NCBI GenBank assembly: GCA_050613775.1
Contig: JBODTK010000011.1
Coordinates: forward strand, 1,240,001-1,304,000
Direction: 5' to 3'
Origin: Neocallimastix sp. 'constans'
Lineage: Eukaryota
Length of the DNA stretch: 64,000 nucleotides
The translations under genes and the position numbers were made by a program. A model generated the notes under the pieces. The model was not told the origin of the DNA. It searched no databases and saw only the letters and a program-made list of their open reading frames with translations. This document shows, in pieces, positions 5,231-45,502 of the stretch. The stretch's first letter is position 1. The number at the start of each line of letters is the position of its first letter.

Positions 5231-6060
5231 TGTTACGATACAAATAATAAATAAAAAATAAATAAAAAATTAAATAAACTATTAAGATTAATTAATAAAT
5301 AAATAAGAATAAAATATTAAAGTATTAAAATATATAATAAGGAAATTAAATATGTATAAATAACTAAATTATTTAAAATAATGTATTAATTGTATTTATT
5401 TAATATTGTAATAGTAAACAATTAGATATTTTATTATAAATAATTAAAATTATATTTATTATTATTTTATATTTTTATTATAAAATCTTTATTATACTTT
5501 ATTATATTTTTATTATTATCTTATATTAAATATTATATTAAAATTATATTTTATTATATTTTATTATTATAAAATTATTATATTTTTGTTATTATATTTT
5601 TATTATATTTTATATTTTTATTTTTACTCCAATCAAATAAATATTTTAAAGATATAAAAAGAACAAAATAAAACAATACTTTAGTTCTTCCTCTTCTTTC
5701 AACTTTATTTTTTATATTTTTCTTTTAATTTTTCGAGAATGAAATAGTAAATATTTAGAATTAGTATAAATAAATAATTAAATAAATAATTAAATAAAAT
5801 TAAATTGTTCTCTAGTTAAATCGATTAGTTTTGTTTTTGTGTTTTATTATAGTTAAGGATAAAAATAATTTTGGTTAGTTTAAATATTTAAATTTGTTAG
5901 GTAATTTAGTTTTAATTTAGAGATAAATTTTATTAAAATATTTATTTAAGTTATTTATATTAGAATAGTTAAAATAATATTTATTTTGTTAGTGAAAAAT
6001 TAAATTTTTAATTATTAGAATATATTATTTTTTTTTTTAATAATCTTCAATTCTGTACCA
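5231..6060 (+). repeat. 5' LTR of Gypsy-A
   Basis: TG...CA ends. Differs from the 3' LTR by one visible substitution and a T-run length. Confidence 0.95.
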
Positions 6061-6067
6061 TAAATCT

Positions 6068-6085
6068 TGGCGAGCTATGCAGGAC
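6068..6085 (+). promoter_or_regulatory. Primer-binding site, probably tRNA-Arg(ACG) 3' end
   Basis: TGGCGAGCTATGCAGGAC is the complement of ..GTCCTGCATAGCTCG-CCA, which resembles eukaryotic tRNA-Arg(ACG) 3' ends. Confidence 0.7.
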
Positions 6086-7094
6086 ATGAAGATAAAAAAA
6101 TAATATGAAAATAATAATTAAAAATATTAGATAAATAATAAAGTTGTAGAAAAAAAAAAAAATTTGAAATTTAGCCAATAGAATAATTAGAAAATTGAAA
6201 AAAAAAAAAATTAAAATTTAGCCAATAGAATAGTTAGAAAATTGACAAAAAAAAAAAAAAATTTGGATTATAATTAAAGTTGGAAATTTTATTATAAAAT
6301 TATTGGTAATAATAATAAAAAATATATATATATAAAAAATAAAATTTTAGATTATAAATTTAATTTGGAAATTTTATTAATAAAATTATTAGTAATAAAA
6401 AAAAAAAAAAAAAAAAATAAATTAGTAATAAATTATTGAAAATAGTTAGTAGGTAAATAGGGAATTAAATAATTAAATTAAAGTAAAATTTTTGTTAATT
6501 TTGATATTGGAAAGTTTAAATTTTATAATTAAATTTAAAATAAATAGTATATAGTATAAAAAATAAGATTATTAAATACTGATAAAAAAGTATATTTATT
6601 ATTTTCATTCAAAAGAAAAATTAAAACCAAAAATTATAAAGATTTATATACAGTGTGTAAACCGGTTGAAAATTAATTAGTAAAGAATTAGGGTGATTCC
6701 AATTTTTACTAATTAAGGTTTTTAATCGATCTCGTGAGTGCGTGAATACGTCCCAAAGTAATAATTATACTCCCCACGGCACTTTCCGTAGTTTATCAAC
6801 TATCCGAGTGTTGTCAGGGTTTTTGGACAAGATCGAGCACTGGAACAATAATGAACTTATATCACCGAAGGTATAAGGTCCATTTTACAAACCTTTATAA
6901 GAATATAAAAATAAAGTTTTATTATCAATACAGCGAAATAATTAATTCAATAAATAAATAAAATTTTTTTATTCACACAATTTTAATTAATTCAATTTCT
7001 ATTTATTCAATTTCACTTCATTATCAGTTTAATTTAAAAATAATCATCATTCTATATTTAAATTCATAATCAGGAAATTTTCACTTTATATTAT

Positions 7095-7144
<50 letters not shown>

Positions 7145-7311
7145 ATCAATACTTCTAATTAGTCATTCATTAAAAAGTTAATTCAATAAGTTCAGGCAAA
7201 AAATAATAAAAAAAAATATTTATAGGAAATAAAAAATAATCTATAATTAACAAAACAACAAAAACTTATCCACTTATCAATCCATCCATCAATATATTCA
7301 ATCTTATTAAA

Positions 7312-8274
7312 ATGAAAATATTAGAATTAGAAAGTTTACTTCCCCGTCTTAATGAATACGATAGAGATATTGTTTCTTGGTGTGACGAATTCACAAGAAT
7401 CATGTCTTTAGCAAATATCACCAATCCAATGAGTATACACTCCTGGGCAATGGAGTGTGTTGAAGGAAAATTAAGAGGAATAATACAAGACTTATATACA
7501 ATTGAAGATGGTGTTCAAAATTATCCAACAATTCAAGAAATTAAGGACGCAATTGAGAAGGCTTTGGACATAACACCACAAGAAAAATGCAAACGACTTC
7601 AAAAGTTAAGAATTCAGAAAGGAGAAAGCATAAGAAATTTCAATTGGAGATATAAAAAAATGTATAATAATCTCCCAAAGTTTTACCAAACGTTTATTAT
7701 AGTAGAAGATTATGAAGAATCAATTATTTATAGACCCTACGCAAGATCACAAGTAATTACACAAAGATGTTTGGATTTAGAAGATGCATTTGAAGAAGCT
7801 GAACTTGCCGAAAGAGCTGAAGAAAGAAGAAATAACAATAATGAAGTTATAATGACAACATTATATAATAATCATCCATTTTATTACAACAATAATAATT
7901 ACACAGTTAATCCTTACAGACAAGCCAAAACAATAAATTATAATTCCACTTTTAACGGAAGACAAAGTTACATCAAGAAAAATAATTTTAATCAAAGATA
8001 TTACAAAGGAAATGCTGACTTTCAAAATAATTATAATAGAATTCATTTTAATAATGATAAAGTCAATAATTATACAAACAATAATCCAATTACAAGAAAT
8101 GAATCAAACTTTTCTAATAATAATAATATTAATGAAACGAAATCAACTTATAATAATCAAAAAACATGCTATAGATGCGGTCAAAAGGGTCATTATTACA
8201 ATCATTGTCCTTACTCTTTCAAACAACTTGCAGAAATGGAAGAAAAGAATAATAATGAATCTTTAAAATTTTAA
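7312..8274 (+). CDS. gag: Gypsy Gag with CCHC zinc knuckle
   Basis: 320-aa ORF with CYRCGQKGHYYNHC, located after the PBS. Confidence 0.92.
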   Translation: MKILELESLLPRLNEYDRDIVSWCDEFTRIMSLANITNPMSIHSWAMECVEGKLRGIIQDLYTIEDGVQNYPTIQEIKDAIEKALDITPQEKCKRLQKLRIQKGESIRNFNWRYKKMYNNLPKFYQTFIIVEDYEESIIYRPYARSQVITQRCLDLEDAFEEAELAERAEERRNNNNEVIMTTLYNNHPFYYNNNNYTVNPYRQAKTINYNSTFNGRQSYIKKNNFNQRYYKGNADFQNNYNRIHFNNDKVNNYTNNNPITRNESNFSNNNNINETKSTYNNQKTCYRCGQKGHYYNHCPYSFKQLAEMEEKNNNESLKF

Positions 8275-8295
8275 ATGGAAGAAGGAAAACTTCCA
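8262..8295 (+). promoter_or_regulatory. -1 programmed ribosomal frameshift signal (gag-pol)
   Basis: Slippery T TTA AAA in the gag frame, 7-nt spacer, hairpin TGGAAG/CTTCCA. The -1 frame is open into the pol ORF. Confidence 0.8.
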
Positions 8296-11200
8296 ACAAT
8301 CAAACCAAAAATGAAGTTGTTGCTGTTGCCGTAAGAAATAATAAGAAAACAAATAAAGAAAAGCCTTATAGTAAGACTAAAACAAAAACAAATAAAACTA
8401 TAAATACAAAGAATAATCATAATAATGAAGTTGAAAAAATGGAATTAGAAAATGATGAATTACAAACAATTGAAAACAATAATACGAATGCTATTTTTGA
8501 TATCGATAAAAGCAATAGCAATAAAATTCAAACTGAGAATGATATTTCAATATTACCTATTACAACACATTCAACTGAAACTGAAAGACTTAATGAAATT
8601 GACGTTTCAGTTTTAGCACAACAATCTATCAACAAAGCGAAACAAAATGCTAAAAATCAAAAAGAAAAAGAAATCATTGAAGAATCAGAAAATATTATTC
8701 AAGAAACTAATATTAATAAACAAAATAAATTACCAAGTACACAATTAGAAGAAAGAAAAACAAAAAATAATAATACTGATAAAATAGAAAAACACATTAT
8801 GATAATGGATGGACAACCAAAATATGATATAACAAATGATCTCAATAATAAATTTGCAAATATTACATTTCCACAATTATTAGATATTAGTCCAAAATTA
8901 CGAGCGGAATTTATAAAAGCATTGAGGCTGAAAAGCCCTGCAATAAATAAGAAAACTCCTGAAGAAATCATCTTATCAGTAATGGCTAGAGATGATGTAG
9001 CAACAACAGAATGTCGAATTAATAAAGTAAAAGGAATCGCTTTTTTAGATACAGGTGCTAACATAAATTTAGTTACCAAACAATTCTTAAACAAGCTAGG
9101 AAAAATTAAACCAGTGGGATATGTAAAAAATAATATTGTCCAAGTCTTATCAAAAGAAAATGTGTATACAGAGATATATTTATTAAATGTTAATATTGGA
9201 AAGTTAAATTTACACGATATTTTTAGAGTTATTGATAGTAAACATAATTTATTTGATATTTTAATTGGTTATGGAACACTTAAAGATAATAATTTATTTA
9301 TAAACCCAATAAATAATTCTCTATGTCTTATGAAAGAAAATAATTCATGGAAATGTTTAACAAAACTTGGAAAAGAAAATAATGAAGATGTTATTAACGA
9401 TGATGAAGAAGATGAATCAATAAATACAGATGATAAATCTAATTCTGATATTAATAACAATTCTTATTTATACTGCCTTATTAATGAAAATAAAGATGAA
9501 AATAATAATAAATTGTTAGAAAACCATAATGAAGAATTAAATACTATAAATAATAATAATGATAGCAAAGTTAATAATAAAATTGATGAAGATGAAAATA
9601 AAAAGGCGACTTTACTACAAAACATTATAATTGAAATTCCCAATAAAAATAAAAAGAAGGATAGAAAATTATTAAAAGAATTTTCCACTATTTTTGCAAC
9701 AAAAATCGAAGAACTTCAACCGACAAAATTATTACCACACAGAATTCATTTAGTAGATAATGCCAAACCAATAAAACAACGATGTTATAGGCTTTCTAGG
9801 GTTCAAGCTAAAGCACTTAAAGTTGAATTAGAAAAACTTATAAATAACAAGTTAATTGAACCTTCCAATTCTCCCTGGTCCTCTCCAGTTATATTAGTAC
9901 TAAAAAAGAATAAGAAATGGAGATTGTGTGTGGACTTTAGGAAATTAAACACCGTCACAATAAAAGATGCCTATGCATTACCTTTAATCGATGAAATATT
10001 ATTTTCAATTGGAACTGAGGTTAAAGTGTTCACTACAATCGATTTATTTTCTGGTTTTCATCAGATTCCAATGTATAAAGACGATATACCTAAAACAAGT
10101 TTCACCACTATGTATGGCAATTACCAGTTTCGAGTAATGCCTTTTGGATTATGTAATGCTCCCGGAACCTTCCAAAGGGAAATGAATAGGATATTTCTAT
10201 CACTTATTGGAATTTGTATGTTTGTCTACGTTGATGATTTAGTTGTATTTTCTCCTTCTATTGAACAACATATAGAGGATCTCAATAAAGTATTCAACAT
10301 CATTAAAGAAAATAACTTAAAAATTAATTTAGAAAAATGCAACTTCTTCAAAGAAAAAGTCAATTTATTAGGTTATACTTTATCAATTAATGGAATTTCC
10401 CCTATACAAGAAAAAATTCAGGTTATTTTAGAATGGATTCCACCAAGAAATATCACTCAATTACAATCCTTTATTGGTGCAGTCGGCTATTATCGAAAGT
10501 TTATATTCAACTTTGCTAATATTGCTAAACCATTGTTCAAATTATGTAAGAAAGGTGTTAAATTTATATGGGATAAAGAACAAGATGATAGTTTCAATGA
10601 ATTAAAAATTAAGTTAGCTTCTGCACCTATTTTAACTATGCCTAATTTTGATAAACAATTTATTATCCGTACTGACGCTTCTTATGATGGTATTGAAGGA
10701 GTTCTCCTTCAAAAAGATGAAAACAACATTGAAAAACCTATTCATTTTGTAAGTCGCTCTTTAAAGCAGGCGGAGAAGAATTATGCAATAACAGATCTTG
10801 AGGGTACAGCCGCGACTTACTGTGTTACAAAATTTAAGTCTTATATTGCTGGAAATAAGTATGAAACACTTCTTTACACAGACCACAAGCCATTAGTAGG
10901 ATTATTCAAAAACAAAGAAACCAATAATTCTAGGCAAACACGTTGGGTTTTACTTCTTTCGATGTTAAAAGTTAAAGTATTATATGAACCAGGAAAAAAG
11001 AATGTTATAGCAGATGCATTATCCAGACTACATACTGAGCATAATAAAATTATAAGTACCATAACAAGTGAAATAGGTGAAAATAATTCAAATAATTTAC
11101 TTTCTTGTTATAAAGACAAATTCATAGTAATTAATAATGAAGAATATTTTAAAGATGATCGTAAACAAGACGAAAAAGTTGATTTAATATTAAAAGCACA

Positions 11201-12239
11201 TAAAATTGGTCACGAAGGTGTATTTAAAACCTATAATAGACTTAAACGTGACTATCATTAGACTAATATGATTCTTGATGTTAAGTATATTGTAAAAACC
11301 TGTGAAAGATGCCAATTATTTAGACCCCAGTCATTTAACTATCAAACAGAAGACATTGCTACTAAACCAGGATTACCGTTTTCAAGAGTTGGTTTAGATA
11401 TTATAGGCCCACTCCCAACAACAAAGAAAGGAAATAAATATATATTAGTCTTAGTTGATTATCTAACAAAATGGGTTGAAGCAAAACCAAAACAAAATAT
11501 TGAATCCGATGATGTAATTGAATTTTTATCTGATATTTTTGCTCGATTTGGAATACCTGAAGTAATCGTAACTGATAATGGTCCACAATTCTGCTCCGAT
11601 AAAACAAAAGCATTTCTTGATTTATATGGCGTTTTCGTTCAATTTGTTGCTACTTATCATCCTGAGTCAAATGGTGAAGTTGAAAATCGCAATAAAGAAA
11701 TTGGAAAATACTTAAGATTATTATGCAACAAAAACACTTCTATATGGGATGAAATATTACCAAGTGCGTTATGGGCCTTACGTACTTGTAAAAATGAAAC
11801 AACAAAATTTTCAAGTTTTGAATTGTTGTATGGTCGTCGTGACCTTCAACCATTTGAATTAATGTTGAACTTAGACAAAAAGGAAAATTATGAAAGCGAA
11901 GATGAATTTTTAATTAGAAGGTTTACTACTCATTATAAATGGATAAAAGAAGCCATAAGCAATATTTAAACTGCCAATAAAATATGGGAAGATAGAAGAA
12001 AACAAGTTAAAAGACTTAAAGCAGAATATAAACCTGGTGACTTAGTATTAGTTAAATATATAAACAGAAGAAAACTTGATCCTTATTTCTTAGGACCAAT
12101 GAAAATAGTTAAAAATCAATTTAACACAGTAACGCTTTGTGATCCAGTTACTAATGAAATAGCCGAAAGAAATGTGCATTTAAAGAATATCGTTCCGTAT
12201 AGATTATGTGAAATTGAGACTTCAAGGGACGAAGTCTGA
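8262..12239 (+). pseudogene. pol: Gypsy Pol (protease, RT, RNase H, integrase) with two in-frame stops
   Basis: FLDTGA, WRLCVDFR, MPFGLCNAP, YVDD, RTDAS, HHCC and DDE integrase motifs. TAG at 11259-11261 (expected W) and TAA at 11967-11969; the frame continues to TGA at 12239. Confidence 0.93.
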
Positions 12240-12256
12240 TCTTAGGGGTGGCATCA

Positions 12257-13084
12257 TGTTACGATACAAATAATAAATAAAAAATAAATAAAAAATTAAA
12301 TAAACTATTAAGATTAATTAATAAATAAATAAGAATAAAATATTAAAGTATTAAAATATATAATAAGGAAATTAAATATGTATAAATAACTAAATTATTT
12401 AAAATAATGTATTAATTGTATTTATTTAATATTGTAATAGTAAACAATTAGATATTTTATTATAAATAATTAAAATTATATTTATTATTATTTTATATTT
12501 TTATTATAAAATCTTTATTATACTTTATTATATTTTTATTATTATCTTATATTAAATATTATATTAAAATTATATTTTATTATATTTTATTATTATAAAA
12601 TTATTATATTTTTGTTATTATATTTTTATTATATTTTATATTTTTATTTTTACTCCAATCAAATAAATGTTTTAAAGATATAAAAAGAACAAAATAAAAC
12701 AATACTTTAGTTCTTCCTCTTCTTTCAACTTTATTTTTATATTTTTCTTTTAATTTTTCGAGAATGAAATAGTAAATATTTAGAATTAGTATAAATAAAT
12801 AATTAAATAAATAATTAAATAAAATTAAATTGTTCTCTAGTTAAATCGATTAGTTTTGTTTTTGTGTTTTATTATAGTTAAGGATAAAAATAATTTTGGT
12901 TAGTTTAAATATTTAAATTTGTTAGGTAATTTAGTTTTAATTTAGAGATAAATTTTATTAAAATATTTATTTAAGTTATTTATATTAGAATAGTTAAAAT
13001 AATATTTATTTTGTTAGTGAAAAATTAAATTTTTAATTATTAGAATATATTATTTTTTTTTTAATAATCTTCAATTCTGTACCA
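12257..13084 (+). repeat. 3' LTR of Gypsy-A
   Basis: Direct repeat of 5231-6060, preceded by the PPT. Confidence 0.95.
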
Positions 13085-14769: not shown

Positions 14770-16841
14770 TGTAAGAATCTATAATTATTTGCTAACAAAT
14801 AATTATATTTTCTTAGTTAAGTTATTATAATTATAACTTTATGGCGTACTTCACTTTCAAAGGCGTATTATTATTCCTTCCAGTCTCAGGGCTAGACTTT
14901 TAAAGTCTTTCCATGATGCACCCACTAGTGGCCATCAAGGGGTAGATAGGACCTTTGAAAAACTCAGAAGGAACTACTGGTGGCCTAATATGAAAAAAGA
15001 TATTTCAAATTATGTGGCTTCTTGTGATGTTTGTTGTAGAAATAAAATCCGTCGTCATAAACCTTATGGTAAACTAATACCACTTCCTACTCCTACAAAA
15101 CCCTGGGAAGTTATTGGCGTCGATTTTATTGTTTCATTGCCTTCTTCACAAGATTGCACTTGTATCATGGTTGTTTCTGATCATTTAACCAAAATGATTC
15201 ATTTAGTACCCTGCTCCGATGTTCCCTCTGCCGATTTAACTGCTAAGCTCTTACTTTTCCAAGTCTTTAAGTATCATGGTTTTCCTAAAGTGATTGTGTC
15301 TGATCATGGTTCCCAATTCTCTTCTCAATTTTGGACTTCGTTGTGCGATGCTATTCGTGCTAAACCAAGACTTGCTACTGCTCACCACCAACAATCAAAT
15401 GGTCAGGTTGAACGGGCTAATGCTGTAATAGAACAATATCTTCGCTGCTATTGTTCTTCTGCTCAAAACGAATGGTGTTTCTACCTCCCTTTATGTGAAA
15501 TGTCCTACAACAACTCCATTCACAAATCAATAGCTCAAACTCCTTTTCATGCTAACTATGGATTTGACCCAAATTGTGTTATTGATTCACCACCGATTCT
15601 GCTAAAAGATAGTGCTTCTGTTCTTACTAGGGATTGGTCTTCACATTTCAATGCCCTTCGTCAACATTTAGTTAAAGCCAAAGAAGATTTTAAGAAATAT
15701 GCTGACAATAAAAAATCTGTAGGACCTGACTTTAAGGTAAATGATTTGGTAATGCTTAGAAGATACTACTTTACGAATGAACCCTCTAGAAAATTATCCA
15801 CTCAATATATTGGACCTTTTAAAATCATCGAGAAAAGGGAAAGAATGAATTACCGTTTGGAACTTCCAGAGAACTTACATCTCCATCCGGTATTTCATAT
15901 CTCACAATTGGAACCATATACTAAAAGAAATGAAGACTTAATGGAAACATCATAATTAAACAGAGCAATGTAAGAATCTATAATTATTTGCTAACAAATA
16001 ATTATATTTTCTTAGTTAAGTTATTATAATTATAACTTTATTTAATTACATATAATATTTATTAAATTTATTTAATTTAATTTTAAATATTCATTAATTT
16101 AACAAAATTTATTTAATTAATTTTAAATAATATATTTACAATATGTTAAATTCTCTACTGTAACTAATGTATTTTGTATTGTATTTTATTCTGTATTTTA
16201 TAATGCATTCTGTATTATATAATGTATTCTGTATTTTATTAACTATTTAATTTTATATTTTTAATATAAGGATAAATTATATGATCGAAATATCTTTTAT
16301 TATTTTATTCTTTTATTTTCGATCATTAGATTGGAAAATCGGTTAATTAAGATTTTTTCCAATTACTTTTTAGAAGTAATCGGTTTTACTTAATTAATGC
16401 GATGATCGATATGGATAGAATATCGATCAAAAACTTATCTAGGTTTTTCTATCTAATCTTTTCCTAGATAAGAGATTTGTTAAGATTAGAAAACCCTTTC
16501 TTATTTAACCTTATTTTCATAAAAAAATATAAATAAGGCTCTTGAGTTCTCTTTGAGAAATCAAGAGTTATTATTATAAAAAACATAGTTATAATAGTAA
16601 CAATTTTATATTTTTAACTTTAATAAATTAATAAAATATTTTATTCAAAAAACATATTTTAAAATCAAATTTATACAAACAATTCTTCTCTTACTTCTCG
16701 TGTTATTATTATAATTAATTTTATAATAAACTCTAAAGGTAAAAAAAATTTATCTTATTTTATTTTCTCAACTTAATGAATTAGTCGTTAAGTTGTAGTC
16801 AATAATTCTATTTTGAGTTAGTTATTAATAGAATTATTACA
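14770..16841 (+). mobile_element. Internally deleted Ty3/Gypsy element (Gypsy-B)
   Basis: First ~72 bp of the LTR (14770-14841) fused directly to integrase coding sequence; complete 3' LTR 15969-16841; flanks TTGTG/TTGTA. Confidence 0.9.
14840..15955 (+). pseudogene. Gypsy (Tf2/chromovirus-like) integrase fragment without chromodomain
   Basis: Frame open upstream of the called ATG: HDAPTSGHQG...YWWPNM...CDVC, then VDF...SDHGSQF...NGQVER, GPF motif, HPVFHISQLEPY, then stop. Confidence 0.9.
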
Positions 16842-17525: not shown

Positions 17526-17827
17526 TTTTGATACAAGATGAAAAGAAAAATAATGATATTTTAAAATTATTATTAAATTATATTTGTTAAATATTGTGGC
17601 AGTGTTTAGATACAAAATACTAAATATACATTTTAATACATTATCAATTACATTGTAAATATAAATTTATATAACTATAAAAAAAAAAAAATAATAATAA
17701 TAATAATAATCTTAGCAGTAAGAAATAAATAAATAAAAAAGTAAACAAATAAAAACATAAGTTCATCTGAAATTATATTAAGAATTTTTATTAATATGTA
17801 TTGTGTATTCCAAACCTAAACTTAATA

Positions 17828-17850
17828 GATTAAGAGTCTCAACGACTCTA
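17828..17850 (+). promoter_or_regulatory. Copia-A PBS complementary to the anticodon arm of tRNA-Lys(CUU)
   Basis: GATTAAGAGTCTCA abuts the LTR; its reverse complement TGAGACTCTTAATC is a tRNA-Lys CTT anticodon stem-loop. Confidence 0.85.
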
Positions 17851-18077
17851 TGTAAGGTATTATTGTATTATTTGGTTATATAATTTAGTTTTACAAAAGT
17901 GATTACTTTGAAATCACTATATTAATTTCAAAATTTAAATATTGAAATTTACATTATAAAATTAAAAATTAAAAATTTTGATTAAAATTTAAACAAAGGA
18001 TTTAAAATTTTAAAACAATTAAAATTAATAAATTATTAATCAAAATTTAAATTTTATAAATTAAATAAACATAAAAC

Positions 18078-21000
18078 ATGGATTCTAAAAATAATGAGTC
18101 CTCTAACTCATCAAACAATATAGCTAGTACCAGTAGTAATTCAAGAGAAAAAGAAACCTTGGATAATTCTGAACTGGTAAATAAAGGTTTACAAAAACTT
18201 TTAGAAGCTATAAACAACAATAATCATAATAATCTTGAACAAATAACAAACGCATTTATAAAAACCATTGAAAATATGAAAATAAGAAGTAATAATGAAG
18301 ACTATAATAGTATCAATGTAAATACTAAAGGTGATGAAGGAACAAATAATGTTCCTTTTCACATTAAAAACTTTCATTTAACTTCTATTAATTTTCAACA
18401 ATGGTTTAAATCTTTAGTACATCACCTTATTTCAACGGATTTAATAAATTTCATTGAAGTCCAAAAGGAAACTAAATCAATGAATCAACTGGAAATTAAA
18501 AAGGATAATAAAACCCAGTCAATAATTGAATATAGTCTTGATGAAGAGGGAAATGATGTACTAAAAGGATGTAAAACAGCGTTTAAAATGATGAGTAGAT
18601 TAAAAGAAAGATATTATCAAACAGGTCAATACTATATTGATAATATCGATAAACAAATTAAAGGCTTAAAAATTAAAGATAATGATTTTTTAAGCTATAT
18701 ACATAAAATGGACGAATTATATAACCTTAGAAAAACAGAATGTGATAAATTAGATAAAGAATCACTAAATGATATTTATAAAATAACTCACATTTTTAAA
18801 GAACTTATAAATACCAGAATACATCCTTTATTTGTCTATTTGGTTGATTGCAATTCTTATGACGAATTTAAAGAAAAAATGTACAAATTAAATTCACTGA
18901 TGGTAACAATAAAGAATTTAACTGATAATAATAATTTCGATAAATATAATAACAATATAAACAGAGTTCAAAAGGGTAAGTTACCATACAACTTCAACTT
19001 TGATAAAAATACAAATCAAAGAGAAAAGGTCCATATAGAAGACAACTATTGTTACATATGTGAAAAATATGGACATATAACTAAGAATTGCTATAAAATT
19101 AAAACCAACCAAAGCAATTCAAGTAATAATAAGATAAATAAAGGTAGAAAAAGAAAATTAAAGTTAAAAACTAAAAAATATAATAAAATATTTAAATCAT
19201 GTAATGTTGAAAATAAAATTAAAAAACACACTAATCAACATTCTGATTCTGATTCAGATGATATAAAATCATTAAATTTTAATTCTAATTATGTCTCTTG
19301 TTCTCTTGCAAAAAATGATTTCATAAAAGGCCACAACAACAAGAGAAAATTCGAAGTTATAAATACCTCCAAAAATCCGAATATATCCTCTACCTCTTGG
19401 ATTATTGATAGTGGAACTGCTATCAATTTAATAAAAGACTGTAATAAATTAACAAATGTTAAGAAAATTGAAGAAAGAACAATTACTTATGCTAATGGAA
19501 CTACTGAAATTATAAAATATGTTGGAATGTACAAAGGGGAATATAAAAATAAGATTTTTTCCATACCAAATGTTTATTTCGCATCGAATATAAAAAATAA
19601 TTTAATTTTGACAAACCATATATTAAATATGGGTTTTGAACTAAACATTAGAAAAATTAGAAATAAGAAGGTACTAACTATCACAAAGAATAATAAATAT
19701 ATTATTAATCTCAACTCAAACAATGAAGGTTTATTTGTAATGAAATCAAAAGATTTACAAACTAACAATGATGTAAATTATGTTGACGGGTATAGATTTC
19801 TAGTAAATCATATTGAACATAACCTTTGGCATGCCAGACTTGGCCATTTTGTAAATAAGGAATTAGAAAGTTATGTTAAGGATCATACCCAAAATAAGCA
19901 CATTTGTAAACAATGCAAAATTAGTAAAATGAAAAGGGCAAAGTTCAACACGTCAACAAATAAAACAACAAATCCTTTGGAATTGGTCCACACAGATGTC
20001 GTAGGCAAGCTCAAAATGTCGAACAGTAGATTCAAATTTTATGTTACCTTTTTAGACGATTATTCGAGAAAATGTTTGGTATATCCCATTAAAGCTAAAA
20101 ATGAAGTCTTAGGAAAATTTGTGGATTTTTACAAATTAATGAAAAATGTCTATGGATATCATATTAAGATACTGAAGTCTGATAGAGGTCTCGAATATAT
20201 AAACAACAATTTTTCTAATTTTGTTCATGAAAATGGTATAAAATTTATCCATTCTGAAGCTGGCGCACAAGAACAAAATGGTAAAGCGGAACGCTTAAAC
20301 CAAACATTAAATAATTGCGCCAAAACGTTATTAAATTGGGCAAAACTTCCTCTTTGTTTCTGGGATGAGGCTATCGTTGTAGCTGCAAAATTATACAACT
20401 TAAATCCTCATCAAGGAAATAATAATTTAGTTCCGGACGATGTCTTCTTCAATAAATTGTCAGATATTTCAAACCTAAAAGTTTTCGGATGCAAAGTAGC
20501 GTTCTTCAATAATTATAAAAAGGATAAATACGAAAATAACGCAAAGCAAGGTATTTTTTTGGGTTATTCTAATGATTCAACTGGGTACAAGATTTTAGAT
20601 TTAAACACTAACTCTATCATCACTGCTAGGGATGTCTATTTTTTTGAAAATCTGCCAGGCACTATTAATACTCCTTTTTTTACTAATAAAATTATTAGTT
20701 CACTACTGGAAACATCCACTTCATCAATTGAGGGGGAAAGGTCGTCAAGCATAATTAATACTGATAAAACAGGACAATTGCATAAAGTGGATCACAACGA
20801 AGATACCAAAAATGATTTACATATTCCAGTTGAAAAGTCGGATGATGGAAAATTATCAATAAATAATAAAGAGAATAATATATTATGTGTTAAAACAAAT
20901 GTTCCTCAAACATATAAACAAGCGTTAGAATCAGCTGATCGTGAAAAATGGAAAATAGCGATAGCAAAAGAATTTAAAAATATTTATGATAATCATGTCA

Positions 21001-22412
21001 CAACAGTTGTTGACAGTAGTGAAATACCTAAAGATGCAAATATACTTGATGGTACATGGGTATTCACGATTAAAGATGACGGAACAAGAAAAGCCAGGTT
21101 TGTAATCAGAGGCTTCAAACAAATTAAAGGGAAGGATTTCATTGACACATATGCTCCGACTTTACAATCTGATAGTTTAAGAATTACTATCGCCATAGCA
21201 TCTATAATGAATTGGAATATAATGCAAATCGATATAAAAGCAGCATACCTTAATGCTGAATTGAAAGAAAAAATATTTGTAAAAATTCCAGAAGGAGACA
21301 AGAATTTTAATAAAGAGAAATACTGGTTATTAAATAAAGCTTTGTACGGCTTTAAACAAAGCAGAAGAGCTGGGAATAAGGAAATTACAAAATTTCTAAA
21401 AAGTATAGGATTACATCAATTAGATACTGACGAATGTATATTTTGTAAGTATAATAAGAATCATAAATTATATGCAATTTTAAATTTATACGTTGATGAC
21501 ATATTATTAACCGGTAATGAAGATGAAATTAAAGAAATTATCAACAAAATTAAAAGAAAATACAAAATATCTAAAGAATCAATTGCTAATAAAATCATTG
21601 GTATTAATATTATGAAAGCTAAAAAGGGCTATAAAATTAATCAAAAGGATTATATTGATAAAATCGTCAAAAAATACATGATGCATAAAACTAAAAGAAT
21701 CTATACTCCATGCCATAGGATAACTATGGAACAAAGGGAAAATTCCAGGTTTGTAGATGTAACCAGTTACAAATCACTTTTAGGAGCATTACTTTATATC
21801 GCTGTTAAAACGAGACCGGATATAGCATTCTCTGTAAATCAACTTGCCAGAAACTGTGAAAAGCCAACGAAAGCTGATTACGATTCTGCTATGATGACCT
21901 TGCAATACTTAAAGTCAATAAAAGAAAAGTCAATTTACTATAATGGTAATGAAACTTTAGTTGGATATTCTGACTCAGACTGGGGAGGTGATGAATCAAC
22001 AAGAAGATCAACAAGTGGTTTTATATTCCTCTTGGGAAATGCTCCAATAGCTTGGAAATCACAAACACAAAAATGTGTTACATTATCTTCTGCCGAAGCA
22101 GAATGTGTTAGTCTCATTGAATGCACTAAACATGCATTAAAATTAAGAAAAATCATAAAAGAAATTACTAACAAAGAATTAAATATAAAGATCTTTGTAG
22201 ATAATAATGCATGCAAAGCTATGGTTGAAAGTGAAAATGCCAGAGGCAGAATAAAACATATGGACATAAAGTACAAATTCATTTACGAAAATATAACAAA
22301 AAACAAAATAAATTTGGAAAAGATCGAGTCCAATAAAATGGCAGCAGATCCACTTACTAAATGTATTTCCGGACCAAAAATGTCCATCTATTCTAAATAC
22401 ATATTCGATTAA
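18078..22412 (+). CDS. Copia Gag-Pol polyprotein (Gag CCHC, PR, IN, RT, RNase H), 1444 aa
   Basis: CYICEKYGHITKNC, WIIDSGT, LWHARLGH, HTD..D..E, KARFV, YVDD, YSDSDW, ADPLTK. The frame is open but several conserved residues are substituted. Confidence 0.95.
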   Translation: MDSKNNESSNSSNNIASTSSNSREKETLDNSELVNKGLQKLLEAINNNNHNNLEQITNAFIKTIENMKIRSNNEDYNSINVNTKGDEGTNNVPFHIKNFHLTSINFQQWFKSLVHHLISTDLINFIEVQKETKSMNQLEIKKDNKTQSIIEYSLDEEGNDVLKGCKTAFKMMSRLKERYYQTGQYYIDNIDKQIKGLKIKDNDFLSYIHKMDELYNLRKTECDKLDKESLNDIYKITHIFKELINTRIHPLFVYLVDCNSYDEFKEKMYKLNSLMVTIKNLTDNNNFDKYNNNINRVQKGKLPYNFNFDKNTNQREKVHIEDNYCYICEKYGHITKNCYKIKTNQSNSSNNKINKGRKRKLKLKTKKYNKIFKSCNVENKIKKHTNQHSDSDSDDIKSLNFNSNYVSCSLAKNDFIKGHNNKRKFEVINTSKNPNISSTSWIIDSGTAINLIKDCNKLTNVKKIEERTITYANGTTEIIKYVGMYKGEYKNKIFSIPNVYFASNIKNNLILTNHILNMGFELNIRKIRNKKVLTITKNNKYIINLNSNNEGLFVMKSKDLQTNNDVNYVDGYRFLVNHIEHNLWHARLGHFVNKELESYVKDHTQNKHICKQCKISKMKRAKFNTSTNKTTNPLELVHTDVVGKLKMSNSRFKFYVTFLDDYSRKCLVYPIKAKNEVLGKFVDFYKLMKNVYGYHIKILKSDRGLEYINNNFSNFVHENGIKFIHSEAGAQEQNGKAERLNQTLNNCAKTLLNWAKLPLCFWDEAIVVAAKLYNLNPHQGNNNLVPDDVFFNKLSDISNLKVFGCKVAFFNNYKKDKYENNAKQGIFLGYSNDSTGYKILDLNTNSIITARDVYFFENLPGTINTPFFTNKIISSLLETSTSSIEGERSSSIINTDKTGQLHKVDHNEDTKNDLHIPVEKSDDGKLSINNKENNILCVKTNVPQTYKQALESADREKWKIAIAKEFKNIYDNHVTTVVDSSEIPKDANILDGTWVFTIKDDGTRKARFVIRGFKQIKGKDFIDTYAPTLQSDSLRITIAIASIMNWNIMQIDIKAAYLNAELKEKIFVKIPEGDKNFNKEKYWLLNKALYGFKQSRRAGNKEITKFLKSIGLHQLDTDECIFCKYNKNHKLYAILNLYVDDILLTGNEDEIKEIINKIKRKYKISKESIANKIIGINIMKAKKGYKINQKDYIDKIVKKYMMHKTKRIYTPCHRITMEQRENSRFVDVTSYKSLLGALLYIAVKTRPDIAFSVNQLARNCEKPTKADYDSAMMTLQYLKSIKEKSIYYNGNETLVGYSDSDWGGDESTRRSTSGFIFLLGNAPIAWKSQTQKCVTLSSAEAECVSLIECTKHALKLRKIIKEITNKELNIKIFVDNNACKAMVESENARGRIKHMDIKYKFIYENITKNKINLEKIESNKMAADPLTKCISGPKMSIYSKYIFD

Positions 22413-22525
22413 AAGAAAAATATATATTTGTATTCATATATTCTTAAAACTCTATTCTTATCTATATTAATATTACTAATTTTTATATTATATCATATTA
22501 TATTTTCTTGATGACATTTATTAAT

Positions 22526-22574
<49 letters not shown>

Positions 22575-22926
22575 ATGTAATTTTTAATGTCGGGGGAATG
22601 TTAAATATTGTGGCAGTGTTTAGATACAAAATACTAAATATACATTTTAATACATTATTATCAAAAATATTATGTTAAGAAACACTCAAATAAGTTATAA
22701 TAAACACAATAATAAATATATATGGATTAGTAGTTTTTAGAAAAATATTTTTTTATAACAGTATAAATTATTTTTATTTTCTTTTTGTATAAGATATTAT
22801 TTTTTTTATAAAATAATAATTCCATGATTTTTATACTTTTTATTTTGAATATTAATATAAGTAATTGGTCATTATTTATATTAAAGATAGATTAATTAAA
22901 TTAATCATTATTTTGACATTCCCCCA

Positions 22927-22987
22927 AAAATCTAGCTTCAAAAAAAAAAACTTTTTAAAAGATAAAAAAAAAATGAAGATAGATTTT
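22927..22987 (-). ncRNA. ENE-like U-rich internal loop cis-element in the Copia-B 3' UTR
   Basis: AAAAUCUAuCUUCA-U10-au-CUUU uaa AAAG-U10-UGAAGcUAGAUUUU immediately before the PPT. Confidence 0.65.
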
Positions 22988-22994
22988 AATATAA

Positions 22995-25900
22995 TTAATT
23001 AATTATTTTCGTTAATAAGGTATTTCTAAATTTGTCCATTAAAGAGTTATTTAAGTATTTTGTAAAACCATCAGCAAGGTTGTCCTTTGATTTTATGTAT
23101 TTTAATTTTATAATTTTCTTATTTACTAAATCCCTAATATGATGATACCTAATGTCAATGTGTTTTGATTTCGGATTTATTGATTGATTTTCACTATTAT
23201 ATATTGTTGCTTTATTGTCTACGAAAATTGTTATTTCTTTGATATTTATGTTTAATTCGTTTAATAAATTTTTGTACCATAATGAATGTTTTGCGCATTC
23301 ACTTAAGCTATAATATTCAGCTTCTGTAGTTGAGGTGGAGACACAGTGCTGTAATTTGGAATACCAACTTGTTGGAGTGTCCCCCATTAACATGAGAAAT
23401 CCAGAAGTTGATTTTCTTGTATTTGGATCGCCAGCAAAATCGGCATCTACAAATATTTTTAATTTCATTCCCTTTTCTATTTTGATTCCATAATTTTTTG
23501 TATATTTGAGATATCTAAAAATTTTTAAAACATTCATCCAATCTTCTAAGTTGGGATCTGTTGATTTTCTTGAAGCTCTGCTAACAGCAAAAAGAATATC
23601 AGGACGGGTACAGATAGCTAAATATAGTAAACTTCCTATTGCACTTCGGTATTTTGTTTCATTGAATTTTTTGGTTCTTAGATTTGGATTTACTAATGGC
23701 GTAAGATTTTTTACTGGTGTTAAGTTGTTAATATCGAATTTATTTAAAATGTCATTTATGTATCTACCTTGATGTAAAATGTAACCATTTAAAGTTTTGG
23801 TAAATTTTATTCCAATTACAAATTCAACATCCCCAATATCCTTTATATTGAACTTCCTTTGAATAGATTGTTTTACTTTATTTATTTCTTGATTTGTTCC
23901 TGCAATGAGAATGTCATCAACGTATACTGAGAGAATACAAACTATTTCCTTCCCATTGTTTAATTTAATATAAACACATGGCTCACTTTTTATTCTCTTG
24001 AAACCTATTTTTATCAATTCTTCATTGAGTTTATCATTCCATTCTTTACCAGCTTGTTTTAAGCCGTAAAGAGCTTTGTGAAGTTCCCAAAAAGATTTTC
24101 CGTAAGATGGATGACCCTCTGGTGCTTTCATGTATATATGCTCATTTAATGGTGCATTTAAATAAGCTGAATTGATGTCTATTTGAACAATATTGAAATT
24201 TTTCTGAACCGCGATAACTGTAATGATTCGAACTGTATCCTGTTTTAGTGTTGGTGCAAATGTTTCTTTGTAGTCGATACCGTACTGTTGAGTGTATCCT
24301 TTTGCAACTAATCTTGCCTTTCTTTTAATAACATTTCCGTTTGCATCTCTTTTATACTTAAATACCCATCGTGATGATATTACGTTGGATCCTGATGGTA
24401 CTGTTTTAACAATTTTATAAACATCAAGATTTTTCATGATTTCTAATTCTTTCTTGATTGCGTTTAGCCATTCTATTTTATCTTTAAATTTGAATATATC
24501 CTTGAAGTTATATGGTTCAATTAATGTATTTTCATTAATTTTCATGTCTGATTCATCTGTGTTGTTTATTTTTTTTCTTTTATTTGAATTAATTATAAAA
24601 TTGTTTAAATTCCTTTTTGAATTTTTAGGATGTTGATAGTTTTGATTTTTCTCTTTATTTGTGTTATATTTATTATTAATGTTGTTAATTTCTTGTTGGT
24701 TTTCTGTTGATATTTTGTTGTTATCATTTTCAGTCGCATTTTTAATTTCATTATTAATATTGATTGAATTATTATTGAAATTGTGATCATTTGAATTTAA
24801 CAATTCCTGATTGAAAGTATTGTTACTATTATTGATTGTATTATTGTCAATAGTATTGTTGTTATTTTCATTATTATTATTTTGATTACTGTTATTAATG
24901 ATAATTTTTTCATTATTATTTTGATAATTGGGATAATATTTACGACTAATTCTATTTGTTTTAGAAGATTTATTTTTGGATTGATTTTTAATATTTTTAT
25001 TCTGGTTAATATTTCTATTCTGGTTAAAATTTATTGTAGCATTTCTTTCATTGATAATATCTGTTATTTTATTATTATAATCATCAATTTCATTACGGTA
25101 TCTAAGTCGGTTTAGACAGTTGCTCTCCCTGAATTTGTTATTGGAATGAATACGATTTAAAAAGGAATTTCCTGGTTCATTTTCCATAAATTCTACAGTG
25201 CGAGATTGGATGATTTTATTATTGATAACATCAAGAATTTTGTAAGTGGAAGGATGATCGCAATATCCAAGAAAAATACCAGGATGTGAATTATTGTCAA
25301 ATTTTGATCTTAGTTCCTTTGGCACAAAGAAATAGACTCTACATCCGAATACTTTAAATGTATTGTAATCTACAGGCTTATTATAAAATACTTCAAATGG
25401 AATTTTGTTTTGAATGCCTTGATGGGGAAGTCGATTATGAATATAGTTTGCAGTATCAACAGCAAACTCCCAAAAATCATGACTGAGTTTAGCGTCGTTA
25501 AGAAGTGATTTTGAAGAAGCAATGAGTATACCATTAAATCTTTCAGCCCTTCCATTTTGAGAAGGGTTATAAGGAACTGAAAACTGATGATGAATTCCAT
25601 TTTCTTCACAGAAAATTTGAAATTTACTATTTTGAAATTCCTTCCCATTATCAGACCGAATTGCTTTGATATTTATATTTAATGAATTATAAATTTTATT
25701 ATACCAAATGATAAATTTGTTAAATACATCATTTTTATTTTCAGTAAAGATGACCCATCCATATCTAGAGTAGTCATCTAAAATTGTAAGGAAATACTTA
25801 TTGTTATTTATTGAAGGATTAACAGGTCCTACAAGATCTAGATGTATTAATTCTAAAATTTGTTTAGTCTTATTGGTAGATGGTTTAAATGACTTATTTT

Positions 25901-27593
25901 TTAATTTGGAATTAATACATACTGGGCATTTTAATTTTAGATTGATATTACTTAATTTATTTTTTATTTTAGAAATATCATAATGACCTAGGCGTCTATG
26001 CCAAAGGTCTATTACTTGTTGGTTATTTGATTCTGTATAATTGATTTCGTTATGTTTTGTTGAATTTAAATTTGTTTGGTGTTTGGAAGTGAAAATTTGA
26101 TATGTATTTTTATCATTAGATAAAGATTTATAAATTCTATTTCCATTATTATCATAAATTAATGCTTGTGGGGAGTTGTCATAATTATTGAATATTACTT
26201 TATAATTTTGAGAAATTAATTGATTGATTGAAATTAAGTTTCTCTTAATATATCTTGAATAATAAACATTTCTTAAAATGAATTTGTTGTTGTTAATGAA
26301 TCCTACAAAATCGCCACAAAATTCAGATAATACTTCTTTACCATTCGCTAGTAAAATTTTTGTTTTACATTTTTTAACGTTAGTAAGAAATTTTATGTCA
26401 TTAATAGTAATGATTGATGCACCTGAATCTAAAATCCAAACTATGAAGTTATTATTATGTATATTACTATTTTCGTGATTTTTATTATTTATTCTTTCTA
26501 AACAATTAATTTCGATTGCATTGTCAGAGTTATAATCTTTAGAAAAATCTTCTAAGTAATCGTCTTTATAGTTGTTGTAATTGCTTATTGAATATAAATG
26601 CTTGTTATTAATTTTACTTTTATTATATTTTTTTGTTTAATTTTCTTCGAATTTTCATTGATTTATTTTCATTGTTTTGATTCAAGAGCTTATTTCTTTT
26701 ATATTTATAACATTCCTTTTTGTAGTGGCCGTATTTTCCACATAAGAAACATTTTCCATTTTTTCTTCCTCTTATTTTTAAATACTTATTATTTTGTTTA
26801 TTTTTGTTTTCAGTTTGTAAATTAAAAATATTTTTTGCGTTTTCTTCTTGAAGTTTTCTTTCCTTGATGTTCGAGAAAAGAATATCTGGTATTATTCTTT
26901 TTACATAATTGCAACATTTTATCCATTCATTATTGTACTGGAAAACATTTATCCACCTTAGATTTTCAGGTAAGACTCTATTCAGAATCCCTACCTTTAC
27001 ACTATCACTCATGTCTGTATCGATGATTTCCAATTCATCGATCATATTTTGAAGTGTTGCAAGGAAGATATGTATGTCATCATCTGTGGTAAATTTCAAT
27101 CTGTTTAATTTATTTCGTAATAGCATTTTTTGATGCTCTTCTCCTAAAGTAAAGGAATCTTGAAGGAAGTTCCACATTTCGAAGGCGGTCTTACTATGGC
27201 TTTTTATTATTTCTTTCGTTTTCTTTCCCACGCTATTATTAATTATCCATTTGACCATGATGTCATTCTTGATATCTGTTTGGGTTGTCCCAATATCGTA
27301 AACAAGAGAATTATTAAATTTATCTTTAATGTACTTATCTAAATCTTCTTTAATATCCTTCTTTCTCAATTTTTTTACTTTTGGTAAACTAACTATTCAT
27401 CTAGATTATTGATGATTAAGAGGTCCAATACGTTAGTTTTCCAATCTTGGAAGTTTTCAACCGTTAATTCGGTAACATGATTGAAATTCTCGGAGTAATT
27501 GAAAGAGATTCCTTTAGCGAAGAAATTACTTTCTGATTCGGGAATTTCGATGATTTGGTTTCTAGAATTACTTCTTGAATTGTTTCTGCTCAT
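22995..27593 (-). pseudogene. Copia-B Gag-Pol with two 1-nt frameshifts
   Basis: Gag pieces 27593-27393 and 27369-26623 (CFLCGKYGHYKKEC). The pol frame is open from 26636 to 22995 (WILDSGAS, LWHRRLGH, HLD, YVDD, ADGFTK); the ORF track shows only its 3' part because no start codon occurs before 25325. Confidence 0.93.
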
Positions 27594-28219
27594 TTTCTAT
27601 TTTTTTATTTTTACCTTCTTGTTTTAATTAAAAGTATTTATGTTTTATTATTTTCTTAATTTATTTTTTATTGCTTTTCTTTAATTTGTCTTTTATATGT
27701 TTTTTATTTCTTTAGTTAGATTTTATTTTATTAAATTAAATAATGTAAATTGTAATTAATTTTGATTGGTTCTATTTTTAGTGACAATTTATTATTAATC
27801 TATTTATATAGATTTTTTAATGATTTATATTTAAAAAATTTAATTTAAAGATATTAATATACATTTTATTTTTTAATATTGAGGGAGGAATTAGTATAAT
27901 TTTATTATTACTGAGACCTATCATTTTGATTCTTTTATTAAATAATGTGAGTGTGATTATGTTACTATTCCTTTTTTAATTAAGAATAAATTATTTTTAT
28001 TAATGTTTATTACAAAGTATTGTATATATTTATATTACGAACAATAGTATAAAGAGATTAATTTATTTATATTAAGTGTATTTAAAAATTTTTGCTATTG
28101 TTGTGAAAATGATTATATCATTAATTGTTCATATTTAATATATTATTGTAATTTCATTTTAATTAAAATCTTTATTTTAATTATTTATTATATAATTGAA
28201 TTTTTTATTATATTTTTCC

Positions 28220-28530
28220 CAGCTTATATAGCATAGCTGACATGTCATGTTCTTTTATTCTCAGCTTATATAGCATAGCTGACATGTTATGTTCTTTTAT
28301 CCTCAGCTTATATAGCATAGCTGACATGTTATGTTCTTTTATCCTCAGCTTATATAGCATAGCTGACATGTCATGTTCTTTTATTCTCAGCTTATATAGC
28401 ATAGATGACATGTTATGTTCTTTTATCCTCAGCTTATATAGCATAGCTGACATGTTATGTTCTTTTATTCTCAGCTTATATTCAATAGCTGATCTTTTAT
28501 TTCATCCTCAGCTTATGTCTAATAGCTGAC
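28220..28530. repeat. 42-bp tandem hairpin repeat in the Copia-B leader (~6 full plus 2 degenerate units)
   Basis: Unit CAGCTTATATAGCATAGCTGACATGTYATGTTCTTTTATYCT. Confidence 0.95.
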
Positions 28531-28753
28531 CTTTCGTTTATTTTCAAATTCAATTATATTGATATTGGACTTCTTTGTACAATTATTTTAAATATTAAAG
28601 ATTCCACTTTTATTTTAGTTTTATAATTTATAAATATTTATATATATATATAAATAATTAAAAATTAATATTTAATAATAAATATATAAATTTCAAATTT
28701 ATTTAATGTTAAATTTTTATTTTAAAAAAAAATACTTAGCTTTTATATGGATT

Positions 28754-28780
28754 AATCGGTTGAGATTGAGACTCTTAATC
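28754..28780 (-). promoter_or_regulatory. Copia-B PBS complementary to the 5' half of tRNA-Lys(CUU)
   Basis: Plus strand reads AATCGGTTGAGATTGAGACTCTTAATC (D-loop through anticodon arm-like) directly against the LTR. Confidence 0.85.
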
Positions 28781-29840
28781 TATCAAAAATATTATGTTAA
28801 GAAACACAATAATAAATATATATGGATTAGTAGTTTTTAGAAAAATATTTTTTTATAACAGTATAAATTATTTTTATTCTCTTTTTGTATAAGATATTAT
28901 TTTTTTTATAAAATAATAATTCCATGATTTTTATACTTTTTATTTTGAATATTAATACAAGTAATTGGTCATTATTTATATTAAAGATAGATTAAATAAA
29001 TTAATCATTATTTTGACAATTATCAATTACATTATAAATATAAATTTATATAACTATAAAAAAAAAAAAAAAAAAAAAATAATAATAATCTTAGCAGTAA
29101 GAAATAAATAAATAAAAAAGTAAACAAATAAAAACATAAGTTCATCTGAAATTATATTAAGAATTTTTATTAATATTTATTGTGTATTCCAAACCTAAAC
29201 TTAATAATATTAATTATATAAAGTTTGTAATATATATATTATTATAAAATTAATTATATAAAAATAGTGAATTATATTAATTATAAATCATATAAAATAA
29301 TATTATAGTATAAAATTTAATTATTATAATATAAACTTTTATATTAATGTTTATATAAAATATAATAATTATGATTTAATATAGAGATAATAATTATAAA
29401 AAAAATATATAAAAATATTATTATAAAAAAAAAAAAATTTGTTAAAAAAATTATTGATATATGTTAATTAGTAATAGTTGATTTAATATAAGAAAAATGT
29501 TTTAATTAGTTAAGATAGTAGTTTAGTTATTAGTTTTAATAAAATTAGTTGTTTAAGTAATTAATTATAGAATATTATATTTAAATTATAATTATTAATA
29601 GTTAATATGATAAAAATAAAATAAAATAAAATAAAATAAAATAAAATAAAATAAAACAAAATAAAATAAAATAAAAATAAAAATATTACAAAACAAATAT
29701 CATAAAATAAAAATTTTAAATAACCAAATAAAATAATTAATATTATTATTAGAATATATAATTTAATACAATTTCCCAGTGTAGCGCCCAAAACTATTGT
29801 AAATACTACGAATATTTTAAAATATATCGTATCAATTTTT

Positions 29841-35884: not shown

Positions 35885-35921
<37 letters not shown>

Positions 35922-35935
<14 letters not shown>

Positions 35936-36597: not shown

Positions 36598-36666
<69 letters not shown>

Positions 36667-41164: not shown

Positions 41165-41165
<1 letters not shown>
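35922..41165 (-). mobile_element. Near full-length non-LTR retrotransposon (APE-RT LINE), decayed (copy 1)
   Basis: Poly(A) tail at 35922-35932; APE motifs (SWNTNG, CFQET, GDFN, IDH, SDH); RT motifs (GVRQGCPLSP, FADD); C-terminal CPCC..H..C; frameshifts and a ~200-bp deletion near 36855; 5' end approximate. Confidence 0.92.
39855..40035. repeat. (TTGAAC)n-type hexamer repeat, Ser-rich linker in the LINE ORF
   Basis: Reads AGT TCA (Ser-Ser) repeats on the minus strand. Confidence 0.8.
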
Positions 41166-41220
<55 letters not shown>

Positions 41221-41221
41221 A

Positions 41222-41259
<38 letters not shown>

Positions 41260-45499: not shown

Positions 45500-45502
45500 T
45501 TT

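What the first reader, a model, noticed from the sequence alone, without database searches (positions are those of the whole stretch)
17828..17850. Half-tRNA priming by tRNA-Lys(CUU) in two distinct Copia families
Seen: both elements have GATTAAGAGTCTCAA flush against the 5' LTR (17828 on +; 28780 downward on -), with no TGG. Imperfect complementarity extends towards the D-arm (TAGAG in Copia-A; AATCGGT in Copia-B). Established: Drosophila copia and Ty5 prime from an initiator tRNA-Met half, and Candida Tca2 from a tRNA-Arg half. Inference: these elements use a tRNA-Lys 5' half cut in the 3' strand of the anticodon stem, a primer identity I do not recall being described.
Basis: partly seen in the sequence, partly recalled or inferred. 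Interest (0 to 1): 0.7.

Follow-up and report, generated by a model that had tools for sequence, protein, structure and literature searches.

The report
Copia primer site matching lysine-tRNA half
Two distantly related copia-type jumping genes, likely of an anaerobic gut fungus, carry the same 14-base site right after their first terminal repeat, matching the middle of lysine tRNA, so they likely start copying themselves from a cut tRNA half; this site is already in print for another fungal copia group.

Summary
Observation confirmed. Copia-A (+) and Copia-B (-, nested in A's 3' LTR; 36-39% protein identity) both start their internal region with GATTAAGAGTCTCA, flush to the LTR and without TGG. 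These 14 bases are the exact complement of tRNA-Lys(CUU) positions 40-27, the register published for half-tRNA priming (nucleotide 40). The shared 15th base is unpaired and varies. Two more families, found by protein alone, carry the same core (L190, L267). Pairing extends into the D-arm in B, L190 and L267 and only weakly in A. A, B and L190 fall in one Copia clade with Orpinomyces proteins. The host's own tRNA gene was not read, but 114 of 118 metagenome hits are tRNA-Lys genes with this arm (the search pattern selected for it). The primer identity is not new: Donnart et al. 2017 give PBS ATTAAGAGTCT, internal tRNA-Lys, for FunCo1, and this scan noted Lys-half sites on other DNA before. What is new is the host lineage, outside FunCo1's reported Pezizomycotina range, and the D-arm extension. 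Priming itself is inferred, not shown.

The parts
17585..17827 (+). Copia-A 5' LTR (243 bp, TG...TA ends)
   Evidence: Matches the split 3' LTR 60/60 and 183/188; ATATT duplication at 17580-17584 and 29207-29211
17828..17841 (+). Copia-A primer-binding core, complement of tRNA-Lys(CUU) positions 40-27
   Evidence: 14/14 match, next tRNA isotype 6
17842..17850 (+). Copia-A possible extension to tRNA positions 26-20, with two 1-nt bulges (weak)
   Evidence: Duplex -30.3 vs core -20.0 kcal/mol, but 296 of 2000 shuffles reach it
18075..22412 (+). Copia-A uninterrupted gag-pol frame (1445 codons stop to stop): protease, integrase, RT, RNase H order
22592..22598 (+). Copia-A polypurine tract GGGGGAA
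   Evidence: Directly before the 3' LTR
22599..22658 (+). Copia-A 3' LTR, left part, interrupted by Copia-B
   Evidence: 60/60 identical to 17585-17644
22659..22918 (-). Copia-B 3' LTR (260 bp)
   Evidence: 235 matches, 3 mismatches, 22 gap columns against the 5' LTR
22919..22925 (-). Copia-B polypurine tract GGGGGAA
22995..27557 (-). Copia-B gag-pol; this copy changes frame twice in gag relative to a 99% identical single-frame relative (P0251, 1532 aa)
28754..28766 (-). Copia-B extension pairing tRNA positions 24-22 and 20-14 without gaps; mismatches opposite 26, 25, 21
28767..28780 (-). Copia-B primer-binding core, complement of tRNA-Lys(CUU) positions 40-27
28781..29018 (-). Copia-B 5' LTR (238 bp); this copy ends TA, most copies end CA
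   Evidence: at 28782 the other letter dominates in three DNA runs
29019..29206 (+). Duplicated ATTAT (29019-29023) plus right part of the Copia-A 3' LTR
   Evidence: 183/188 identical to 17640-17827

Best explanation
The site is the primer-binding site of two Copia (Ty1/copia) LTR retrotransposons, likely of an anaerobic gut fungus, and minus-strand DNA synthesis is predicted to start from the 3'-OH of nucleotide 40 of a cut host tRNA-Lys(CUU). Shown: position flush to the LTR, 14/14 complementarity to positions 40-27 of tRNA-Lys(CUU) genes from other organisms, and the same core in four families of one lineage. Inferred from copia/Ty5: the tRNA is cut in the 3' strand of the anticodon stem, the 40-nt 5' half anneals, RT extends from C40, and primer removal sets the LTR end directly at the site. 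Inferred: a second, looser block pairs with the D-arm (positions 24-10, differing by family) and stabilises the duplex. Recalled, not tested: dimethyl-G26 would stop plus-strand copying of the primer after 14 bases, which would explain why exactly 14 bases stay invariant while the D-arm block drifts.
For:: two exact sites, both flush to LTRs fixed by target duplications. A and B share only 36% (RT-RH) and 39% (PR-INT) identity, yet share the core; among 79 distinct tRNA genes from the session's loci and window, Lys(CTT) matches 14 nt, the next isotype 6; best 3'-end match 3 nt; best match within the own LTR 6 nt; half-tRNA priming starts at nucleotide 40, the position paired by the first PBS base; of 79 Copia contigs found by protein alone, 2 carry the core (L190 after ...TTAACA; L267 at the contig start), both close to B (74% RT; 48-58%). 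D-arm extension as stable in 3 (L190), 7 (B), 16 (L267), 110 (A) of 1000 shuffles; 114 of 118 metagenome hits are tRNA-Lys-type, 88 identical over positions 8-40; positions 19-14, which B pairs, were not in the search pattern; the same PBS is in print for FunCo1.
Against: No whole genome is held, so the host's own tRNA-Lys gene was not read. The five AT-rich tRNA contigs (L084, L091, L095, L106, L145) may be from a ciliate rather than the host: L084 has long intron-free frames and a cGMP-kinase-like gene with only unnamed relatives. The 79-tRNA panel lacks many isotypes and holds no other small RNAs. The extension in A is not significant against shuffles. The one RNA run laid does not cover B's PBS. 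No primer, tRNA half or strong-stop DNA was observed.
Confidence: 0.87

Rival explanations
1. Same primer tRNA, but it anneals intact and is cut after annealing, for example by the element's RNase H or a host nuclease acting on the hybrid, rather than being recruited as a ready-made half.
For: The D-arm extension could help open a folded tRNA (folded tRNA -27.9 kcal/mol; duplexes -30 to -39). For Ty5 a review ascribes the cut to host RNase P, which does not fix the order of events.
Against: Nothing here separates the two orders; the PBS is the same either way. This is a variant of the best explanation, not an alternative to tRNA-Lys priming.
Confidence: 0.3
2. Another host RNA with a natural 3' end complementary to the site is the primer, and the tRNA-Lys match is incidental.
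For: Host small RNAs were not available; the tRNA panel is incomplete.
Against: A 14/14 match in the published nucleotide-40 register, with family-specific D-arm pairing in three of four families, is hard to get by accident. Best tRNA 3'-end match is 3 nt.
Confidence: 0.05
3. Self-priming as in Tf1, or a conserved hairpin or protein-binding motif in place of a PBS as in fungal GalEa.
For: Both occur among LTR elements.
Against: Longest complement of the site within either own LTR is 6 nt in 80% AT sequence; the site does not resemble the GalEa palindromes given.
Confidence: 0.03

Closest known systems
FunCo1 clade of fungal Copia elements (Donnart et al. 2017, PMC5445492; Results section, passages and text supplements seen)
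   Same: [quoted passage not shown]
   Different: FunCo1 is reported almost only from Pezizomycotina, with 2 copies in Lipomyces and none in 245 Basidiomycota genomes. These elements group with Orpinomyces proteins. The text read does not call the primer a half tRNA, give the cut position or mention D-arm pairing. Clade relationship untested.
Hemivirus-type priming: Drosophila copia, Ty5, Osser, 1731 (PMC1181622 passages; PMC8515867 whole text)
   Same: Short internal tRNA segment as primer; synthesis from nucleotide 40 in the anticodon stem-loop; PBS flush to the LTR without TGG.
   Different: Those use initiator tRNA-Met; here tRNA-Lys(CUU).
Candida albicans gamma (Tca2) and whio sites (PMC4139406 passages); plant Bianca 1/2 tRNA-Ile (PMC6317226 passages)
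   Same: Non-Met internal tRNA primers; gamma has an extensive internal match and whio a short one, like B/L190 against A here.
   Different: tRNA-Arg(UCU) or tRNA-Ile; other hosts. That gamma is the Tca2 LTR is recalled.

Membership tests
Ty1/copia (Pseudoviridae) | Two LTRs, PBS after the 5' LTR, PPT before the 3' LTR, target duplication | tested here: met
   features as listed
Ty1/copia (Pseudoviridae) | Pol order protease, integrase, RT, RNase H; RVT_2-type RT | tested here: met
   Pol_BBD, rve, RVT_2 in this order in both; ADxxTK motif at both C-termini
Hemivirus-type half-tRNA priming | PBS complementary to an internal tRNA segment ending at nucleotide 40 | tested here: met
   against tRNA genes of other organisms; register
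Hemivirus-type half-tRNA priming | Primer is initiator tRNA-Met (recalled for the four named members; says 'typically') | tested here: not met
   Only Lys(CTT) matches; 17 of 79 other Copia contigs show the Met-half motif instead (motif recalled)
Hemivirus-type half-tRNA priming | Cut tRNA shown covalently joined to minus-strand DNA | not testable with these tools
   Needs particle or strong-stop sequencing
FunCo1 | PBS ATTAAGAGTCT | tested here: met
FunCo1 | RT falls in the FunCo1 clade | not tested
   No FunCo1 reference sequence was obtained; the paper's tree file (pptx) could not be read. No Pezizomycotina-named protein among the 85 hits or the 120 shown of 6160, which is weak evidence against closeness
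FunCo1 | Host range Pezizomycotina | tested here: not met
   Nearest named relatives are Orpinomyces gene models, 59-65% identity; window GC 19.5%
Pseudovirus-type 3'-end priming | PBS begins TGG and pairs with a tRNA 3' end | tested here: not met
   Best 3'-end match 3 nt among 79 tRNAs
Tf1-type self-priming | PBS complementary to the transcript's start within the LTR | tested here: not met
   Longest match 6 nt

The most novel reading that the evidence does not exclude
A whole Copia clade of anaerobic gut fungi adopted the tRNA-Lys(CUU) half independently of Pezizomycotina FunCo1, and uses a two-part site: an invariant 14-nt core to position 27 plus a family-specific D-arm block beyond positions 26-25. 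Half-tRNA primer identity would then have switched to Lys more than once, and four natural variants would show which part of the duplex is copied from the primer and which is kept by selection.
Probability: 0.4. Interest if true: 0.42.

Novelty: new member of a known kind. Interest (0 to 1): 0.27.

Why it matters
It extends a primer site described only in passing for one ascomycete clade to a likely early-diverging fungal lineage, pins it to the nucleotide-40 register, and adds a D-arm extension that varies among four families. In practice, PBS finders that use tRNA 3' ends would miss these elements, and TA-ended copies would be missed by TG..CA filters. It does not reveal a new mechanism or a new primer identity.

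Tried and rejected
Whole host genome: none held, so the host's tRNA-Lys gene stays unread. Viral collection: the 15-mer gave 71 loci, mostly unrelated, 5 loci with ARAGORN Lys(CTT) calls; a predicted-tRNA pattern with an extra D-loop T gave 0, and that extra T proved wrong; protein scans found no Copia relative. Five genomes behind Copia contigs held no further exact site beyond L190 and L267, and no Lys gene. Idea that TG...TA LTR ends go with this priming mode: rejected for B, where depth with the CA-type letter at 28782 is 4371 of 4698, 1993 of 2033 and 8.9 of 8.9 in three DNA runs; L190 also ends CA; A untested; TGTA ends are known. No substitution is listed in 28754-28780, but only 6 substitution rows occur in about 370 covered bases, so this is no evidence of constraint; a minority 3-nt deletion at 28757 is listed (182 of 2871; 38 of 1521). 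RNA run X19 has no cover of the PBS; no conclusion. Taxon of the AT-rich tRNA contigs unresolved (the atlas did not answer). The IQ-TREE run did not finish; FastTree was used. Near-matches at 59146 and 59998 (2 mismatches) lie in an AT-rich repeat; no LTR context seen. Rfam found only the tRNA-Ser. Ke et al. 1999 is not held.

Full report
Observation. GATTAAGAGTCTCAA lies at 17828 (+) and from 28780 downward (-). The 14-mer has only these two exact sites in the window; 4 sites at up to 2 mismatches against 0.40 expected. Copia-A runs 17585-29206 with ATATT on both sides. Its 5' LTR is 17585-17827; its 3' LTR starts at 22599 after a GGGGGAA tract and is split by Copia-B. Copia-B runs 29018-22659 on the minus strand with ATTAT on both sides and LTRs 29018-28781 and 22918-22659. 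So both sites begin at the first base after the LTR, without TGG. Both elements have the Copia domain order and share 36% (RT-RH) and 39% (PR-INT) identity. A has one open frame of 1445 codons. B changes frame twice in gag relative to a 99% identical single-frame relative.

Host. No genome is held. The window is 19.5% GC. The nearest named relatives are Orpinomyces gene models at 59-61% (A) and 61-65% (B), and the stretch is held by feces metagenomes and three coded organisms. An anaerobic gut fungus is inferred.

Which RNA pairs. The first PBS base pairs with C40, the nucleotide from which half-tRNA priming starts in copia, Ty5, Osser and 1731 (PMC1181622, passages). The 15th base stands opposite G26 and does not pair. 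B then pairs positions 24-22 and 20-14 without a gap (24 of 27; -34.2 against -20.0 kcal/mol for the core; 3 of 2000 shuffles and 7 of 2000 window 16-mers as stable). Positions 19-14 were not in the search pattern. A needs two bulges and is not significant against shuffles (296 of 2000; 59 of 2000 window 16-mers). The D-loop variants A15 and G15 give nearly the same energies, so the site does not tell them apart.

The host's tRNA was not read. Five AT-rich contigs carry the common Lys gene; L145 holds only its first 57 bases. L145 also has a tRNA-Arg(ACG) whose 3' end pairs 18 of 18 with the PBS of the Gypsy element in this window, while the 2 other Arg(ACG) genes in hand (one sequence) do not. 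That points to the host's group. Against it, L084, which shares the Ile-Lys gene pair with L145, has long intron-free frames and a cGMP-kinase-like gene with only unnamed relatives, which looks more like a ciliate (my judgement). This is unresolved.

Independent families. A protein scan that did not use the PBS gave 170 relatives, of which 80 were kept (79 loci), mostly eukaryotic Copia contigs binned into prokaryote genomes. With primer motifs partly recalled, 24 of 79 showed one: Lys-half 2, iMet-half 17, Ile-half 3, iMet 3'-end 2; 55 showed none, many being fragments. The two Lys sites are L190 (74% to B's RT) and L267 (48-58% to B). Of the 4 loci close to A and B, the other two lack the 5' end: L191 has no 5' LTR copy and L192 starts inside the frame. 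L190 reads core, then G at the 15th place, then pairs to position 10 (3 of 1000 shuffles); L267 pairs to position 15 (16 of 1000); B 7 and A 110 of 1000 in the same run. In a FastTree of 112 RT-RH rows (76 loci with at least 300 residues, the two window elements, 34 chosen proteins; L267 too short), A, B and L190 lie in one 25-row clade (support 99) with all 4 Orpinomyces rows, A and B on opposite sides of its deepest split. Support is local SH-like only, the root is a midpoint, and many rows of this clade have skewed composition, which can pull them together.

Other copies of B. Contigs of three DNA runs laid on 28560-29030 show that most copies end their LTR in CA; the window's TA copy is a minority. 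No substitution is listed in the duplex region, but variants are too few overall for this to count, and a minority deletion at 28757 is listed.

Mechanism. Most likely tRNA-Lys(CUU) is cut after nucleotide 40, the 5' part anneals through 14 perfect pairs plus a looser D-arm block, and RT extends from C40. The position, the complementarity and the recurrence are shown. The cut, the nuclease, the order of cutting and annealing, and actual priming are inferred from copia and Ty5 (a review ascribes the Ty5 cut to RNase P: PMC5371799, passages). That modified G26 limits the copied part to 14 bases is recalled and untested.

What is known. Earlier notes of this scan pointed to Donnart et al. [quoted passage not shown] FunCo1 is reported almost only from Pezizomycotina; the main text does not name Neocallimastigomycota or chytrids and the 6 text supplements do not name Neocallimastigomycota, Piromyces or Orpinomyces; two pptx supplements, including the full tree, could not be read and may bear on this. 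Half primers of Met and Ile (PMC6317226, passages) and long and short internal Arg matches (PMC4139406, passages) are in print; ICTV defines Hemivirus by use of a short tRNA segment (PMC8515867, whole text). TGTA ends are known (bioRxiv 137141, passages). PMC13524379 (passages) concerns 3'-end sites and was not relevant. I found no paper on Copia primer sites in anaerobic fungi: one search gave 0 papers; none of the 25 listed of 218 holds the word Neocallimastigomycota; the motif search gave Donnart and two unrelated papers; (listings) added no other Lys-half report. The library lacks most subscription journals and Repbase.

Verdict. A real and well-supported half-tRNA-type primer site. The primer identity is already published for FunCo1 and was noted before by this scan on other DNA. 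It works like FunCo1 and Hemivirus priming; membership of FunCo1 is untested by tree and fails on reported host range. New member of a known kind; interest 0.27.

Noticed in passing
window 22599-29206: Copia-B is inserted in reverse into the 3' LTR of Copia-A, 60 bp from its start, with an ATTAT duplication.
   Followed up: yes
window 5231-13084: Gypsy-type element with 830-bp LTRs 99.6% identical; ordinary 3'-end PBS at 6068-6085, 7 nt after the LTR, pairing 18 of 18 with tRNA-Arg(ACG) of L145; possible 4-bp ATTT duplication.
   Followed up: partly
window 17826-17827, 29205-29206, 28781-28782, 22659-22660: All four Copia LTR copies in the window end in TA rather than CA. For B this is a minority variant of a CA family; for A untested.
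   Followed up: partly
window 28158-28535: Tandem array of about nine 42-nt units in the long 5' leader of Copia-B; role unknown.
   Followed up: no
window 35849-48122: Three near-identical, partly truncated copies of a non-LTR (LINE-like) RT element; label from sequence motifs, no family scan run.
   Followed up: no
window 33341-33886 and 62745-63999: FLYWCH-domain frame with a 73% identical inverted copy near the window end; possibly a DNA transposon remnant.
   Followed up: no
window 14837-15955: Integrase fragment of a second Gypsy-type element (Integrase_H2C2, rve, SH3_Tf2-1).
   Followed up: no
window 49245-50021; 41311-41392: A likely secreted, membrane-anchored protein without Pfam match, and a tRNA-Ser(GCT) gene.
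   Followed up: no
L190-L268: 79 loci in prokaryote species genomes encode eukaryote-type Copia proteins, apparently mis-binned contigs; 17 carry Met-half and 3 Ile-half primer motifs.
   Followed up: partly
L084, L091, L095, L145, L106: AT-rich eukaryotic contigs with closely spaced tRNA pairs (Ile-Lys, Thr-Gly, Ser-Val); organism undetermined, fungus or ciliate.
   Followed up: partly
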